Shown here: in pieces, positions 12,457-50,267 of the stretch
How the letters are laid out: each line of letters starts with the position of its first letter
How positions within the stretch are numbered: the first letter of the stretch is position 1
Source of the DNA: Emiliania huxleyi CCMP1516
Taxonomy: Eukaryota
NCBI RefSeq assembly: GCF_000372725.1
Contig: NW_005201269.1
Location: 124,001 to 188,000, forward strand
Length of the DNA stretch: 64,000 nt
Reading direction: 5' to 3'
Notes under the pieces: model-generated
Databases searched by the model: none
What the model saw: only the letters and a program-made list of their open reading frames with translations
Told to the model about the DNA's origin: nothing
Position numbers and translations under genes: made by a program

Positions 12457-12648
12457 GTGTCCCTTGTCAGGAGCAGGGAGCCCACCTGTCCCTGATCGTC
12501 CTTCCAAAATCCTGGTTCCTGCTCGGAGAGAGAGATTTTTAGAAGCCAACAAGAAATGTGTTCCTGCTCGTGCAGGTGTGGACCCTGTGCCTGTCCTCCT
12601 CCCTATCCCTCGTTTGGGTTCTCTGTTTTCTTTCTTTCTTTCTTTTCC
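12457..12648 (+). mobile_element. Short retroposon fragment, family 'Y', with (TTTC)n tail
   Basis: TGTCCCTGATCGTCCTTCCAAAATCCTG...CCCTCGTTTGG plus T-rich tail. Also at 32543-32678(-), 33965-34063(-) and 42697-42822(+). Confidence 0.6.
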
Positions 12649-22322: not shown

Positions 22323-22796
22323 TGCACCAGGGGATGTCGCGTTTCACACGTGTACTCTCTGTTTCGAAAAACCGCCCACGCGTACGAACCTACACGGGCG
22401 CAGAACAGGACGGCGGCCGCGTCCGCACGGCGACGGTGACGGGCACCATCGTCGGCACCACCGCTGCCGCCATGCCTTGTGGCTTGCACGCCCGCGAAGA
22501 TGTTTAAATTCTTTTCCACAAACGACAGGCAGGCCCCCGGAGATCGAGGTGGAGCCGTGGGACGAGCCCGACGAGGGCGAGAAGCTGCGCGCCTCCGCGC
22601 GGCCGCCGGAGCCGGCTGAGAGGAAGGCATGCTCACGCTTCCGGCCGCACACTCTCGTCCCGGAGAAGGAGCTGCTGGACCTCCCAGAGTTCACGTCCAA
22701 GAACGAGTTCCTACACCACGCAAGAGTATATTGTAGAGACTGACCATGTGCAGAAAATATCTTTCAGTCTAGCTAAGCCTGGGAAGGCGATTTAGT

Positions 22797-22990
22797 GGGA
22801 CGACCGCGAGGTGGCATGAAGATTGCAGCGAGAAGCGGCGAGAGACTGCGAAGAGAGATAGGAAGAGGCAGACTCCCTAGGGTGGGCGACGGCTAGCGCA
22901 CCACACACCTCTCCTTAAAATCCCTGTGTGGTGGCGGCGTGCCGTCCTCCCATCCCTCCCTTGGGTTGTCTGTTTTCTTTCTTTCTTTTT
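22797..22990 (+). mobile_element. Short retroposon, family 'X', with (TTTC)n tail and 12-bp TSD
   Basis: TSD AGGCGATTTAGT at 22785-22796 and 22991-23002. Homologous to 34069-34265(-) and 42947-43030(+). Confidence 0.75.
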
Positions 22991-23286
22991 AGGCGATTTA
23001 GTCGTGTTCACGCCGGGATCGTGTCCCCGACCGACAAAACCAACATGCATGCACAGACTTTATCGAGTAGGTAGGCCGCGACTGTCGTGTCGCAACGAAA
23101 GTCAGAAGTCAGCACTGGGTCCCAGGAAGGCGAATGCGATGACGGCCTCTGAAAGAAAGAAAGAAAGATAACGGACAACCTCTACCCTCTAGAGTGCACC
23201 TCCTGCCTTGTTTTTAACCAGCTATAAACTCCCGCCTTCGCGCCGTTGCATTTGTCCGCGGCCGCTATTATTGCTGCAGCAACTCC

Positions 23287-32430: not shown

Positions 32431-32689
32431 TGCCAGGTGCGCGCCAGGGGCAGTCCCGTGCCTTGACCCTTGTGTTGTGCCTTGTGCGACTTGCGTATTG
32501 CGAGCGACAGCGAGAGAGGAGTTTTGGTAAAATTCTTTTCGAGTATAAATAAATAAAACGGACACGCCAAACGAGGGGCGGGAGAAGCGGAAGGGACAAG
32601 GGTGGTCCTCCCCACCCACTACGCACTAGCCACTTATACATGTCACGAGCAGGATCTTGGAAGGACGATCAGGGACACAGGGGAACGGT

Positions 32690-33881
32690 AAAAAAAACTG
32701 TTCAGTTTTCAAAGGCAAAAACGCCGGCGTACGCCCTCCCCTCACACTGACACTTCTCCCCTATTCCCAACTTTAGGTTGCGCACGTCTCCCAGCGAGCT
32801 AGGATCTCCGCTTTTTCTCCCCTAGTCATCCGCCCGCGCCGCGCGCCTCTATGGGCGTCTAGTGCAGCCACTGACAGAACTATTCCCGAGGAGTGGTCGA
32901 CGTCTCGCCTGAAGTCGGGTGGGCTCGCGCACTGCTTAGCCCTAGGGGAGGGGTGTGTGTGAGGTGGTGGAATGGTAAGGTTTCAGGCCACAGGGGTGGG
33001 GGATTTGGGGGATGAGTCAGGAGCCGGCAGCCTTCCTACTGGACCTGAGTTCTCAGCTCTTCCGCCCGACGGGGTGGTCCCTTGGATTCGGGCCCCGCTC
33101 CCTTTTCCTGCGCCTGGTCTGTCCCTGTCATGAGTGTGTTGCGAGATGCAGAGCGGTTAGCTGGAGCACAGAGCTGGAGCACTGTCTGGTTAGGAAGGCT
33201 GGAGAGCTGTTAGGCTGGGGCACAGAGCTGGTTGGGCTGGAGCACAGAGCTGGCTAGGCTGCTGGTTAGGCTGGGGCACAGGGCTGGTTGGGCTGGAGCA
33301 GTGGAGCACAGAGCTGGTTAGGCTGGAGCAGAAAGCTGGTTAGGCTGGAGCGCGGGCGGTGCGGCGGCCGGCGAGGGCAGCGCGGTAGGCGAGAGGCGGC
33401 CGCGGGGCGTCGAGTGGCGCGATAGGAGGGTAGGCTGGCCGTGGGGGGGCGCCGCGTGACCTCGGCAAATAAGTGATAAATATTGGTTTATGAGGGGCCA
33501 GTTTGTACGCATTGGCAAATCGAGCCTGGGGCGTGGCCTAGTTGGTGCAGCGTTCGGGTCGGGGACGTTTTGGTCGTTGGTTCGAGCCCAGCTGGTGCAG
33601 TTCGTAGTCGCGCAGCGACCGCGGGCGCGCGGGTGCGCGGCAGCCTCGGCAACCGAGGCGACAGTGGCGAGCAGTGGCGAGCAGTGGCGAGCAGGGGCGA
33701 GCAGGGGTCAAAGCAGTGCGGCGCGCCGGATTTTTTCGATGGGCTCGGTCCGTGGGCGTGTCAGGAGGCGGCCGGCTGGGAGAAACTTGCGAAAAACTCC
33801 CAGGCCGGCCCAGGTGGTGGGTGTGTCGCGGAGGCGGCCATTGGCACGCGCTCCTTGTAACCGGGGTCAAGTTTTTTTTTT
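32690..33881 (+). mobile_element. ~1.2 kb non-coding element, copy 1 (A-run/T-run ends, 14-bp TSD)
   Basis: A8CTGTTCAG...GGTCAAGT10. TSD CACAGGGGAACGGT at 32676-32689 and 33882-33895. Near-identical to the reverse complement of 48141-49304. Confidence 0.9.
33527..33600 (+). promoter_or_regulatory. tRNA-derived sequence with Pol III A and B boxes inside the element
   Basis: A box TGGCCTAGTTGG (33534-33545) and B box GGTTCGAGCCC (33579-33589) at tRNA spacing. The T-arm GTTGG/CCAGC pairs; acceptor and anticodon stems are degenerate. Second copy at 48409-48482(-). Confidence 0.7.
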
Positions 33882-34506
33882 CACAGGGGAACGGTAGCGG
33901 GGAGCGCATCGCGACACGGAGGGGGGCGAGTGTTAGTGCCAGTGTGTGTGTGCGCGCGCGCGCCAATAAATAAATAAATAAAACGGGCACGCCAAACGAG
34001 GGGTGGGAGAAGGACAGGGTCCCCACCTGCACGAGCAGGATCTTGTAAGGACGATCAGGGACACGCGCCAAAGAAAGAAAGAAAGAAATCGGAGAACCCA
34101 AGGGATGGATGGGAGGACGGCACGCCGCCACCACACAGGGATTTTAAGGAGAGGTGTGTGGTGCGCTAGCCGTCACCCACCCTAGGGAGTCTGCCTCTTC
34201 CTATCTCTCTTCGCAGTCTCTCGCCGCTTCTCGCTGCAACCTTCATGCCACCTCGCGGTCGTCTCACTCTCGTCGTCCTCTCCCTTGTCATTTCCTCTTC
34301 TGTCGCGTCGTTCTCTTGACACGCGCCAAGCTTTTTTCACTCGACTGCCATTCTTCTTACTCGGTGAGCCTGTGTGTGTGCCAGTCCGCGCCAGTCTGCG
34401 CCCTTGTCGTGCCAGTGTGCTGTGAGAGAGGCTTGTATCTTAAGAATTCTTCTTACTCGAGTAGGCGCCGACTCGCACCCTTGGCCGACTGTGACGCTTG
34501 GTCCCG

Positions 34507-42461: not shown

Positions 42462-42946
42462 CAAAGACACACAGCCCCTTCCCCTCCCCCCTCAAGGGCG
42501 AGGACACGCACAGGCCGCACCTCTAGTGAGGCCCGCATAGTATGTGGGAGACTCGTGCCGCCGCCCCTGCCACCCCTGTGTCAGTGTGCCTGTGGTAGGA
42601 GAGACTGCCAGCGACAAGCTGGAGGCAGGTCGCTAGACTGAGATGAGACCGCCAGTGGATGTGGGAGTCCACCGCGCACCGCGCTGCGAGCCTGTCGTGT
42701 CCCTTGTCAGGAGCAGGAGAGCCCCACCTGTCCCCCTGATCGTTCTTCCAAAATCCTGCTCGTGCAGGTGGGGACCCTGTCCTCGTCCCATCCCTCGTTT
42801 GGTGTCTGTTTTCTTTCTTTCTGCGGCCCGAGGCGAGGTGGATGGGTTGGGAGCGAGGGGGCGGAAGTGATCAGTGCGGTAGATGGTCAGCTCGAGGCGC
42901 GTGAGCCGGGTTGTACGTTTTCTTTCTTTCTTTTTGATTTGTTACC

Positions 42947-43030
42947 TAAAATCTCTCCCTGTGTGGTGGCGGCGTGCCGTCCTCCCATCCCTCCCTTGGA
43001 TTGTCTGTTTTCTTTCTTTCTTTCTTTCTG
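42947..43030 (+). mobile_element. 5'-truncated family 'X' retroposon with 12-bp TSD
   Basis: TSD TGATTTGTTACC at 42935-42946 and 43031-43042. Matches the 3' part of 22797-22990. Confidence 0.7.
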
Positions 43031-47822: not shown

Positions 47823-48140
47823 CCAGCGTCGATCAGGAGGCGGGGGATGTGGAGGTGGTTGTGGGATGAAGGTGTTGCGATGACTGAAATATCGGCTCGG
47901 AGGGCCGGGTGAGGGATAGAGGTAGGGCTGGCGTCGCAGAGGTAGAGGGAAAGGCCCGTCTGAACCTGCCCGCGGAGTCCAGAGATAGGTTAAAAGAGGT
48001 GTACCCGTGTTAGTGCCAGTGCGGGACTCTTACTAGCGGTACCGAATTGCATGTAAAATTCTTTTCCCGAGCCTCCTCTGGGTTCCGGCTGCAAGCCGGA
48101 TAGGGGGTCTGACGTCTGTTGACACTGGCTGGCCCCTCCC

Positions 48141-49304
48141 AAAAAAACTTGACCCCGGTTACTAAGGAGCGCGTGCCAATGGCCGCCTCCGTGACACACC
48201 CACCACCTGGGCCGGCCTGGGAGTTTTTCGCAAGTTTCTCCCAGCCGGCCGCCTCCTGACACGCCCACGGACCGAGCCCATCGAAAAAATCCGGCGCGCC
48301 GCACTGCTTTGACCCCTGCTCGCCCCTGCTCGCCCCTGCTCGCCACTGTCGCCTCGGTTGCCGAGGCTGCCGCGCACCCGCACGCCCGCGTCGCTGCGCG
48401 ACTACGAACTGCACCAGCTGGGCTCGAACCAACGACCAAAACGTCCCCGACCCGAACGCTGCACCAACTAGGCCACGCCCCAGGCTCGATTTGCCAATGC
48501 GTACAAACTGGCCCCTCATAAACCAATATTTATCACTTATTTGCGAGGTCACGCGGCGCCCCCCCACGGCCAGTCTACCCTCCTATCGCGCCACTCGACG
48601 CCCCGCGGCCGCCTCTCGCCTACCGCGCTGCCCTCGCCGGCCGCCGCACCGCCCGCGCTCCAGCCTAACCAGCTTTGTGCTCCAACAGCTCCAGCCTAAC
48701 CAGCCCTGTGCCCCAGCCTAACCAGCAGCCTAACCAGCTCTGTGCTCCAGCCCAACCAGCTCTGTGCCCCAGCCTAACAGTACCTAACAGCTCTCCAGCC
48801 TAACCAGACAGTGCTCCAGCTCTGTGCTCCAGCTAACCGCTCTGCATCTCGCAACACACTCATGACAGGGACAGACCAGGCGCAGGAAAAGGGAGCGGGG
48901 CCCGAATCCAAGGGACCACCCCGTCGGGCGGAAGAGCTGAGAACTCAGGTCCAGTAGGAAGGCTGCTGGCTCCTGACTCATCCCCCAAATCCCCCACCCC
49001 TGTGGCCTGAAACCTTACCATTCCACCACCTCACACACACACCTCCCCTAGGGCTAAGCAGTGCGCGAGCCCACCCGACTTCAGGCGAGACGTCGACCAT
49101 TCCTCGGGAATAGTTCTGTCAGTGGCTGCACTAGACGCCCATAGAGGCGCGCGGCGCGGGCGGATGACTAGGGGAGAAAAAGCGGAGATCCTAGCTCGCT
49201 GGGAGACGTGCGCAACCTAAAGTTGGGAATAGGGGAGAAGTGTCAGTGTGAGGGGAGGGCGTACGCCGGCGTTTTTGCCTTTGAAAACTGAACAGTTTTT
49301 TTTT
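48141..49304 (-). mobile_element. ~1.2 kb non-coding element, copy 2 (inverted; 14-bp TSD)
   Basis: A7CTTGACCCCGG...CTGAACAGT9. TSD GGCTGGCCCCTCCC at 48127-48140 and 49305-49318. Confidence 0.9.
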
Positions 49305-50267
49305 GGCTGGCCCCTCCCAGACCGAGGGACCATGTGGAAGACGGCTAGTGCTAGTCCCCCATCGGGAGGACGACCCCGGCTAGCCGCCGACCACACCCAC
49401 AAAGAACCCTGCACAAAGACCGCAGGGGGGACCTGTTCCTTTTTACCCATCTCCTAGTAGAGGTGTCCGTTTTATTTATTTATTTAGACTCGCAGATTAG
49501 GTAAAGCCGTAGGTAGGTTGGTCTTGTTTGGCCCAAAAGAGAGGGCCCTGCAATAGGTAGGTACCCCCGGCCTCGAGCCTTGAAATGAAAATCTGACAGT
49601 TGCCACCATTTCCCCATGGTGACCAGTATCCCCCTCCCCTGTACAGCCCGGAGCCGCCCAGCATCGGCACGCAAAGACCCGGGGGAGGCGACGGAGGGCT
49701 CGGCTGCAGTAGTCTCGTCTTCTAACCGCCTGCTGTTGGAGCCCTCTCGTGTCACTACCTGCACTGGTGCGGGAAGCCTACCTCTTGACACTGGAATTGG
49801 CACCCATGACCACCTTGGTGCTGCTCTAGCCACCAGTCAAATCGCGCCCCGCGGGCCGCTCTCTGATCGGTCTGCTCCAGAGGTCAACACTCACGGAGTC
49901 AATCGCCCTAAGGCAGAAGTCGATCTCGAGCGGCCGTAAGGCTGGGTTGGCGTCTCCAGGTAAACCCGCTGGATGAACACAGAGCGGGTCGAGGATGCCG
50001 CCAGCCCAAGTTGGAGTAATCGGGCACCACGACACGTCAGCTGTTCTCTACGCTCGACTGTCTGGTGGCCCTGGCTCCTCCTACCCCCAAGCTTGGATCG
50101 ATCCACGTGGGGCGCTCCCGCCGCACGCGTGCGGGAGCGTCCCGACTCCGTCTGCCAGGTGCTGCGCCTTGGCCCCGTGGTAGTAGGTAGGTAGGTGTTA
50201 CCTCACACTGTGTGACAAGGGAGGGCCCCCGCACACGGCACACACGAACCAGTCTTTCAGTAAGCGC

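What the first reader, a model, noticed from the sequence alone, without database searches (positions are those of the whole stretch)
32676..33895. Unclassified mobile element: oligo(A)...oligo(T) termini, essentially no TIR, 14-bp TSD
Seen: two near-identical ~1.2 kb copies (32690-33881 +; 48141-49304 -) have the same precise ends, A(7-10)CT...AGT(8-10). Each is flanked by its own exact 14-bp duplication (CACAGGGGAACGGT; GGCTGGCCCCTCCC), or 15-16 bp counting ambiguous A/T. There is no ORF, and an internal GGTTAGGCTG-type minisatellite differs in copy number. Known: cut-and-paste superfamilies mostly make 2-11 bp TSDs and have real TIRs, while TPRT elements have a tail at one end only and truncate. 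This element fits neither. Inference: a recently active non-autonomous member of a possibly undescribed transposon group.
Basis: partly seen in the sequence, partly recalled or inferred. Interest (0 to 1): 0.85.

Follow-up and report, generated by a model that had tools for sequence, protein, structure and literature searches.

The report
Non-coding mobile element with A/T-run ends
Two fresh copies of a 1.2-kb non-coding mobile element with 14-16-bp target duplications sit in this marine, alga-like genome; the family likely spreads as a T-tailed retroposon, a known kind of element, though a DNA transposon with 15-bp duplications is not excluded.

Summary
Two copies (32690-33881 +; 48141-49304 -) share the ends A(n)CT...AGT(n). 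Each has an exact 14-bp target duplication, or 15-16 bp counting ambiguous bases. They differ by 7 substitutions outside a variable minisatellite, and no ORF matches Pfam.

One metagenome scan gave 38 further insertion sites with the same 31-nt A-run end. The A-run is 5-10 nt long and the sites show no target motif. Raw reads of three runs show many different flanks at that end. Uninterrupted versions of the copy-1 target exist, with a single 14-mer and no A/T runs.

Three new facts bear on the class:
- Short fragments keep only the A-run end. Two of eight sites have 15-16-bp duplications.
- The base after the right duplication is A in 4 of 4 sites.
- The same genome is full of retroposons with T-rich tails and 11-13-bp duplications.

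My best reading (0.5) is a non-autonomous retroposon copied by target-primed reverse transcription from the complementary strand, which ends in oligo(U). A non-autonomous DNA transposon (0.3) stays open, because IS481EU already shows 15-16-bp duplications in eukaryotes. No autonomous partner was found and no whole genome was available. Interest is moderate.

The parts
32676..32689 (+). Left target-site duplication of copy 1 (CACAGGGGAACGGT)
   Evidence: an exact 14-mer repeated at 33882-33895. It lies directly against the A-run.
32690..33881 (+). Copy 1 of the element (1192 nt), A8CT...AGT10, non-coding
   Evidence: Raw reads show diverse flanks before 32690/32691.
32690..32720 (+). Conserved 31-nt terminus shared by both subfamilies (A-run + CTGTTCAGTTTTCAAAGGCAAAA). 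Proposed 3' end of the RNA on the complementary strand. Contains the palindrome AAAACTG-TT-CAGTTTT (32694-32709).
   Evidence: identical in all 41 metagenome loci, 21 nt of it by ascertainment. Subfamilies A and B diverge after it; 116 reads in X17 leave at 32720 with the subfamily-B sequence.
33147..33351 (+). Internal GGTTAGGCTGGAGCAC-type minisatellite, variable between copies
   Evidence: most genomic copies skip 182 nt (33151->33334).
33534..33589 (+). Motifs resembling A and B boxes of a tRNA gene (TGGCCTAGTTGG ... GGTTCGAGCCC). Not called as a tRNA.
   Evidence: One search gives the coordinates; no tRNA by ARAGORN or Rfam. The box consensus is recalled, not tested.
33657..33704 (+). 10-nt tandem repeat (GGCGAGCAGT, 4.9 units)
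   Evidence: Copy number differs in copy 2.
33872..33881 (+). T10 run at the other terminus (T6-T7 in three metagenome copies, T7 in copy 2)
   Evidence: It is absent from the truncated copies, so it belongs to the element rather than being added at insertion.
33882..33896 (+). Right target-site duplication of copy 1 plus the following A
   Evidence: The base after the duplication is A in 4 of 4 sites that have one.
48127..48140 (-). Target-site duplication of copy 2 (GGCTGGCCCCTCCC on +)
48141..49304 (-). Copy 2 of the element (1164 nt)
49305..49318 (-). Second target-site duplication of copy 2
   Evidence: With the neighbouring T and A it reaches 16 bp.

Best explanation
The two 1.2-kb non-coding insertions, each with an exact 14-bp (15-16 bp with ambiguous bases) target duplication, belong to a multi-copy family that is likely a non-autonomous retroposon, copied by target-primed reverse transcription from an RNA of the complementary strand that would end in ...CUGAACAG-U(5-10).

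Inferred steps:
1. An endonuclease of an unidentified LINE-like partner would nick the target just after an A.
2. That A would pair with the oligo(U) tail and prime cDNA synthesis. This gives the A-run followed by CTGTTCAG that is seen at every insertion.
3. Complete copying would reach an RNA 5' end that itself starts with A(6-10), giving the T-run.
4. Incomplete copying would give the short fragments that keep only the A-run end.
5. A second nick about 15 nt away would give the duplication.

Shown directly: the structure, the duplications, the many sites, the variable run length, the truncated copies and the uninterrupted targets.

Inferred, not shown: the RNA intermediate, its strand and the partner enzyme.
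For: - Truncated copies. Of 8 short fragments that keep only the A-run end and are read through into other DNA (34-180 nt), 2 sites have duplications of the same length. L009/L028 has ACATGCTTTTTTAGC(+A). L030 has TTCTGAGACCAAAAC(+A), with 7 filler bases at the truncated junction. Neither has a T-run at the truncated end.
- Base after the duplication. It is A in 4 of 4 sites, while the 30 nt upstream show no motif in 40 sites. That is the asymmetry expected if the nicked end primes on a U tail.
- Run length. The A-run varies from 5 to 10 among 40 distinct sites (5:2, 6:4, 7:11, 8:14, 9:7, 10:2). This includes copies 98-100% identical in the neighbouring sequence.
- Ends. There is no inverted repeat beyond A8CT/AGT8. 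The A-run end is identical for 31 nt in two subfamilies that then diverge. The other end is only 84% alike between variants.
- Genome context. The same genome holds very abundant repeats with a T-rich simple-repeat tail, a truncated other end and 11-13-bp duplications. One lies at window 22797-22991 (+), ends in (CTTT)n TTTTTA, and is flanked by GGCGATTTAGT twice. Another is in L001. See, and depth up to about 20,000.
- Literature. Poly-T tails are reported for 26 of 61 grass SINE families (PMC5585668, passages read).
- Insertion is real. Uninterrupted targets exist. Reads skip 1210-1212 nt from 32687/8 to 33899-33901: 21, 36 and 30 reads in X17, X18 and X19. Fifteen contigs of X8 read GGAAGGACGATCAGGGA straight into 33882.
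Against: - TSD-less fragments. 6 of the 8 short fragments (L001, L035, L027, L021, L026, L014) have no duplication. In five of them none was found, with up to 2 mismatches, within 1.5-2.5 kb downstream.
- Ascertainment. All metagenome copies were found through the A-run end, so fragments that keep only the T-run end could not be seen. Short fragments are also favoured by assembly. The one-sidedness of truncation is therefore not established.
- Read depth. It falls from the A-run end (about 430-650) to the other end (about 140-400). Subfamily divergence above 10% confounds this.
- 5' A-run. Full-length copies start, on the proposed RNA strand, with A(6-10). The ends are therefore symmetric, as in a transposon with terminal inverted repeats. 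My account needs an ad hoc RNA 5' end.
- Metagenome full-length copies. Three of them (L012, L029, L034) show no duplication (0 of 3). I think they are chimeric assemblies over a 1.1-kb repeat, but I did not show that.
- Missing pieces. No reverse transcriptase or endonuclease was found in the window (0 of 164 ORFs of 160 aa or more) or in the loci. No RNA data were examined. No tRNA/7SL/5S head was found.
- Duplication length. Four duplications all within 14-16 bp is a narrow range for most LINE-driven insertions.
Confidence: 0.5

Rival explanations
1. A non-autonomous cut-and-paste DNA transposon. A transposase or integrase would recognise the A(n)CT/AGT(n) ends and cut the target with a ~15-nt stagger. 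The one-ended fragments would be products of aberrant excision or repair that starts at the T-run end.
For: - The ends are symmetric: a perfect 10-nt inverted repeat, A8CT/AGT8.
- The duplication is 14-16 bp in 4 of 4 sites.
- Both ends are sharp, with diverse flanks, in raw reads.
- Most of the depth is carried across the first 450 nt.
- The internal minisatellite and lack of coding capacity are typical of deletion derivatives.
- Repair after one-sided cleavage would explain why 6 of 8 fragments lack a duplication.
- A eukaryotic DDE superfamily with 15-16-bp duplications is already known (IS481EU, PMC10045372).
Against: - Nothing is inverted beyond a homopolymer plus 2 nt, and no subterminal inverted motif exists.
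- The two ends are unequally conserved: 31 of 31 nt against 84%.
- The truncated ends do not resemble a pseudo-end. They lack AG-T(n).
- The fragments retain only 3-15% of the element while the right duplication is intact in 2 sites.
- A follows the duplication on one side only: 4 of 4, against T before it in 14 of 40.
- No transposase was found.
Confidence: 0.3
2. An element of a mechanism not yet described. One version: a retroelement whose two strands can both serve as template, because each ends in AG-U(n), with priming at both nicks. Another version: a linear DNA inserted by an enzyme with a casposase-like 14-15-nt stagger.
For: - Each strand ends 3' in AG followed by T(n).
- The duplication length equals that of casposons. 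That figure comes from the search listing of PMC6977970 and from recall.
- Neither standard model explains all features.
Against: - There is no direct evidence.
- No Cas1-like or other enzyme was found.
- Insertion sites are not specific, unlike casposons (recalled).
- The standard models each explain most features.
Confidence: 0.12
3. A Helitron or Helitron2-type rolling-circle element inserted between host A and T runs, with one-ended copies.
For: - The A|...|T context superficially recalls the A/T target of Helitrons.
- Helitron2 non-autonomous elements of Chlamydomonas are often 5'-truncated and then carry 7-19-bp duplications (PMC3627910, passages read).
Against: - The uninterrupted target has one 14-mer and no A or T run, so the runs arrive with the element.
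- Both full-length window copies have duplications. In the Helitron2 families, full-length copies have none.
- The ends are CT...AG, not TC...CTRR (consensus recalled).
- No terminal hairpin stands out.
Confidence: 0.03

Closest known systems
Poly-T-tailed SINEs of plants (26 of 61 grass SINE families; PMC5585668) and, in size and build, LINE-dependent composite retroposons such as SVA (recalled)
   Same: - Non-coding and multi-copy.
- A variable homopolymer T tail on the proposed sense strand.
- Flanking duplications of about 15 bp.
- An internal variable tandem repeat, as in SVA.
- Copies truncated from the end opposite the tail.
   Different: - It is 1.2 kb long, against 102-399 bp for the grass SINEs.
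- No tRNA, 7SL or 5S head was detected.
- The 5' end is an oligo(A) run complementary to the tail.
- The duplication falls in a narrow 14-16-bp range.
- The partner LINE is unknown.
IS481EU DNA transposons of parabasalids (Kojima & Bao 2023, PMC10045372)
   Same: A eukaryotic mobile element with 15-16-bp target duplications that also has non-autonomous families.
   Different: - IS481EU ends in TGT...ACA (TNT..AYA) with inverted repeats of up to about 50 bp. Here the ends are A(n)CT...AGT(n), with nothing inverted beyond 10 nt.
- IS481EU also makes 4-bp and ~25-bp duplications.
- It is known only from parabasalids.
- No transposase was found here.
T-rich-tailed repeats of the same genome (for example window 22797-22991, with a (CTTT)n tail and an 11-bp duplication)
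   Same: - Same host.
- A T-rich tail at one end and truncation at the other.
- A flanking duplication.
   Different: - Microsatellite tails rather than a pure T run.
- Duplications of 11-13 bp.
- No run at the other end.
- No sequence similarity to the element.
- Far higher copy number.
Helitron2 non-autonomous elements CRe-1/2/3 of Chlamydomonas (Bao & Jurka 2013, PMC3627910)
   Same: One-ended (5'-truncated) copies flanked by duplications, with T runs at the junctions.
   Different: - There, full-length copies lack duplications and insert after a host TTTT.
- Here, the runs belong to the element and full-length copies have duplications.

Membership tests
LINE-dependent non-autonomous retroposon (TPRT) | Simple-repeat or homopolymer 3' tail of variable length | tested here: met
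   The run at the conserved end is 5-10 nt across 40 distinct sites. On the proposed sense strand it is a T tail.
LINE-dependent non-autonomous retroposon (TPRT) | Flanking target-site duplications | tested here: met
   Duplications of 14-16 bp at 4 sites. They are absent at 6 of 8 short fragments and at 3 of 3 metagenome full-length copies, which may be chimeric.
LINE-dependent non-autonomous retroposon (TPRT) | Truncation from the 5' end only, with a constant 3' end | tested here: inconclusive
   Eight fragments keep the A-run end. All copies were ascertained through that end, and the depth gradient is confounded.
LINE-dependent non-autonomous retroposon (TPRT) | 3' end shared with an autonomous LINE; RNA intermediate | not testable with these tools
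   No genome is held. No RT or EN was found in the window or loci.
Canonical SINE | Pol III head derived from tRNA, 7SL or 5S at the 5' end; length under about 800 bp | tested here: not met
   ARAGORN gave 0 and Rfam gave none. The A/B-box-like motifs lie mid-element on the other strand. The element is 1192 nt long.
Cut-and-paste DNA transposon / MITE | Terminal inverted repeats | tested here: inconclusive
   Only A8CT/AGT8 (10 nt, mostly homopolymer) is inverted.
Cut-and-paste DNA transposon / MITE | Duplication of fixed length | tested here: met
   14-16 bp in 4 of 4 sites that have one.
Cut-and-paste DNA transposon / MITE | Autonomous relative with a transposase; excision footprints | not testable with these tools
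   No transposase was found in 164 window ORFs or in the locus ORFs. The uninterrupted targets seen are most likely paralogues of a repeated flank.
IS481EU | Duplications of ~15-16 bp (also 4 and ~25 bp) | tested here: met
   14-16 bp. No 4-bp or 25-bp cases were seen.
IS481EU | TGT...ACA / TNT..AYA termini and inverted repeats | tested here: not met
   The ends are A(n)CTG...AAGT(n).
Helitron / Helitron2 | Insertion into a host A/T or T-run site without duplication; 5'-TC...CTRR-3'; terminal hairpin | tested here: not met
   The uninterrupted target lacks the runs. Duplications are present. The ends are CT...AG.
Casposon | 14-15-bp duplication together with inverted repeats, Cas1 and site-specific insertion | tested here: not met
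   The duplication length fits. However, the 40 sites show no motif, no Cas1 was found, and the host is a eukaryote.

The most novel reading that the evidence does not exclude
The family represents an undescribed group of eukaryotic DNA transposons, or of integrase-like elements. Its ends are homopolymers, A(n)CT/AGT(n). It cuts the target with a 15-nt stagger. It is unrelated in its termini to IS481EU and is active in a marine alga.
Probability: 0.2. Interest if true: 0.75.

Novelty: new variant of a known kind. Interest (0 to 1): 0.45.

Why it matters
Mobile elements of marine algae are poorly catalogued. This family is young, with two copies about 99% alike outside a minisatellite. It is present at tens of sites and has unusually clean, symmetric ends.

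- If it is a T-tailed retroposon, it extends that kind beyond land plants. It also offers a simple system for asking how a reverse transcriptase primes on oligo(U), and why the 5' end mirrors the tail.
- If it is a DNA transposon, it would be only the second eukaryotic group with about 15-bp duplications.

Either way, the insertions are useful strain markers in an ecologically important plankton organism.

Tried and rejected
- **Whole genome.** None is held for this window, so no census of copies was possible.
- **Earlier findings.** There were none for this genome or sequence.
- **Viral contigs.** Scans with both termini gave 0 hits.
- **Genome contigs.** A scan with a 19-mer near the T-run end gave 11 bacterial loci. 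They match over 20 nt only, about the number expected by chance for a 19-mer by my own rough estimate.
- **RNA families and tRNA search.** Nothing was found above noise.
- **Folding of both termini on both strands.** Only the complementary-strand A-run end of subfamily A scored z = -2.8. Subfamily B scored +0.2. There is no convincing conserved structure.
- **Partner enzyme.** No RT, EN or transposase turned up. I scanned 15 + 149 window ORFs, 12 locus ORFs and 9 element ORFs. ORFs next to the truncated fragments are ordinary genes: C2, AMP-binding and carboxylesterase. The 670-aa ORF in L011 has only a weak PhyH-like lead (score 0.83-0.85).
- **Extra end fragments.** I searched the 155 kb in hand for further left-end-only or right-end-only fragments and found none of either kind. 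This is uninformative.
- **Other families with an A-run end and a 14-16-bp duplication.** A blind scan of the same 155 kb found none. It did find families with microsatellite tails and 11-13-bp duplications.
- **Organism.** A protein search gave one unnamed 100% hit. I leave the organism as the coded 'organism A', a marine plankton eukaryote. My literature searches used a haptophyte species name as a guess only.
- **Copy number.** It could not be calibrated, because no clean single-copy bin was laid. The only low bin is an edge bin.
- **Copy 2 empty alleles.** I did not test them, because both read-laying runs went to copy 1.

Full report
**What is there**

The window comes from a GC-rich eukaryote, about 56-76% GC in 2-kb bins. 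Its ORFs carry cyclin, ankyrin/zf-MYND, WD40, UCH and CG-1 domains. Public runs that hold the locus are labelled with one coded organism and with marine plankton metagenomes. No whole genome is held.

- Copy 1 is CACAGGGGAACGGT | A8 CTGTTCAG...GGGGTCAAG T10 | CACAGGGGAACGGT.
- Copy 2, on the minus strand, is GGGAGGGGCCAGCC | A9 ...T7 | GGGAGGGGCCAGCC.

BLAST finds only these two copies in the window. They differ by 19 substitutions and 8 gap events. Twelve of the substitutions lie in the minisatellite, so the rest of the element is about 99% identical.

A blind scan over all A-run/T-run pairs returned only these two structures. Control arrangements returned none, apart from a microsatellite word.

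The element has no Pfam-matching ORF, no tRNA and no Rfam family. A8CT/AGT8 is a perfect 10-nt inverted repeat and is the only terminal one.

**More copies**

One metagenome scan with a 21-mer of the A-run end gave 41 loci. Together with the window they make 40 distinct insertion sites. The 30 nt upstream show no base preference. The A-run is 5-10 nt long, with a mode of 8.

Two subfamilies share the first 31 nt exactly and then diverge.

Three contigs carry full-length copies whose other end is ...GGGTCCGAG-T(6-7). That end is 84% like the window's. These three show no duplication. They come from short-read assemblies in which the repeat is far deeper than its flanks, and one has k-mer coverage 0.92. 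I suspect chimeric joins but did not prove this.

**Raw reads**

In three genomic runs, 410, 500 and 283 reads run off the element at 32690/32691 into flanks with only 0.33-0.40 agreement. The other end is also sharp, mostly in the variant form.

Depth over the first 400 nt is about 430-650. It falls to about 140-400 near the T-run end. Part of that fall is due to variants more than 10% diverged, so I do not take it as proof of truncation. Copy number could not be calibrated. 'Tens of copies' is an estimate.

**The insertion is real**

Copy 1 sits inside another repeated sequence. Paralogues or alleles of that sequence are uninterrupted.
- Reads skip 1210-1212 nt between 32687/8 and 33899-33901.
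- Fifteen contigs of a fourth run read the left flank GGAAGGACGATCAGGGA directly into 33882.

The uninterrupted target therefore has one 14-mer and no A or T run. The runs arrive with the element. This rules out a Helitron-like insertion between host A and T runs.

**Facts that bear on the mechanism**

1. *Short fragments.* Eight sites hold fragments of 34-180 nt that keep only the A-run end and continue into unrelated DNA. In three cases that DNA includes ordinary genes.
   - Two of the eight sites have duplications of the same length as the full copies. They are L009/L028 (the same site in two metagenomes) and L030. Neither has a T-run at the truncated end. L030 has 7 filler bases at that junction.
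   - Six have no duplication.
2. *Base after the duplication.* Counting ambiguous bases, all four duplications are 15-16 bp. The base after the right duplication is A in 4 of 4 sites. The base before the left one is T in only 14 of 40.
3. *Other repeats in the genome.* The genome's most abundant repeats have a T-rich microsatellite tail, a truncated other end and 11-13-bp duplications. They reach depths of about 20,000 next to copy 1. One example lies at window 22797-22991 and is flanked by GGCGATTTAGT twice.

**Interpretation**

The polarity of the fragments and the one-sided A point to the A-run end as the end where synthesis starts. On the complementary strand that end reads ...CTGAACAG-T(n). 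This mirrors an A-tailed retroposon primed at a T-rich nick.

T-tailed SINEs are established in plants: 26 of 61 grass families (PMC5585668, passages read). T-rich-tailed retroposons abound in this genome. I therefore favour a non-autonomous, LINE-dependent retroposon with an oligo(U)-tailed template. In size and in having an internal variable repeat it resembles SVA more than a SINE. It fails the SINE test for a Pol III head.

Weak points of this reading:
- Truncated copies were ascertained through the A-run end.
- Six of the eight fragments lack duplications.
- The duplication range is narrow.
- The proposed RNA would start with an oligo(A) that mirrors its tail.

**The rival**

A cut-and-paste element explains three things:
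- the symmetric ends;
- the constant duplication length;
- the TSD-less fragments, through one-sided cleavage and repair.

IS481EU of parabasalids makes 15-16-bp duplications (PMC10045372, abstract and passages read). This element does not meet the IS481EU test for termini (TGT...ACA and inverted repeats).

Points against the rival:
- nothing is inverted beyond a homopolymer;
- the two ends are unequally conserved;
- the truncated ends do not look like pseudo-ends.

**Verdict**

The element is real, young and mobile. Its class is unsettled. My odds are:
- retroposon, 0.5;
- DNA transposon, 0.3, of which a new group is about 0.2;
- another or unknown mechanism, about 0.15;
- Helitron-like, 0.03.

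I could not compare it with Repbase or Dfam, so I cannot say the family is undescribed. My four literature searches found no description of such an element, but they cover open-access text only.

Noticed in passing
window 33956-34345, also about 12487-12645, 22786-23002, 32545-32680, 42734-43027 and 49422-49486: Two related, extremely abundant repeat families start (on +) with (AATA)n or (AAAG)n, followed by ...CCAAACGAGGG.... Raw-read depth reaches about 20,000 beside copy 1. The copy at 22797-22991 is flanked by an exact 11-bp duplication, GGCGATTTAGT. They look like retroposons with T-rich tails. Copy 1 of the element is inserted 9 nt from the end of one of them.
   Followed up: partly
window 33882-34061: More than 1000 reads per run join 34061 back to 33882 ('goes back 180'). 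In other copies this stretch is therefore arranged in tandem or nested with a 180-nt offset.
   Followed up: no
window 33534-33589 (and 48420 on the minus-strand copy): Inside the element lie the motifs TGGCCTAGTTGG ... GGTTCGAGCCC, which resemble the A and B boxes of a tRNA gene (consensus recalled). Neither ARAGORN nor Rfam calls a tRNA. Depth does not rise over the 360 nt from there to the T-run, so no separate short SINE is evident.
   Followed up: partly
window 33151-33334: Most genomic copies of the element lack 182 nt of the minisatellite that copy 1 carries: 147, 219 and 183 reads in the three runs. The window copies are therefore expanded variants.
   Followed up: no
L009 and L028 (same site, two metagenomes): The truncated junction differs by a CA dinucleotide between the two populations (...CGCGCA|CATGC against ...CGCG|CATGC). 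The A-run is 8 in both.
   Followed up: no
L011:401-2410 (+): A 670-aa open frame with a non-repetitive sequence and no Pfam match lies next to a 344-nt fragment of subfamily B. The protein atlas gives only weak, PhyH-like leads (0.83-0.85). It is probably an uncharacterised host gene.
   Followed up: partly
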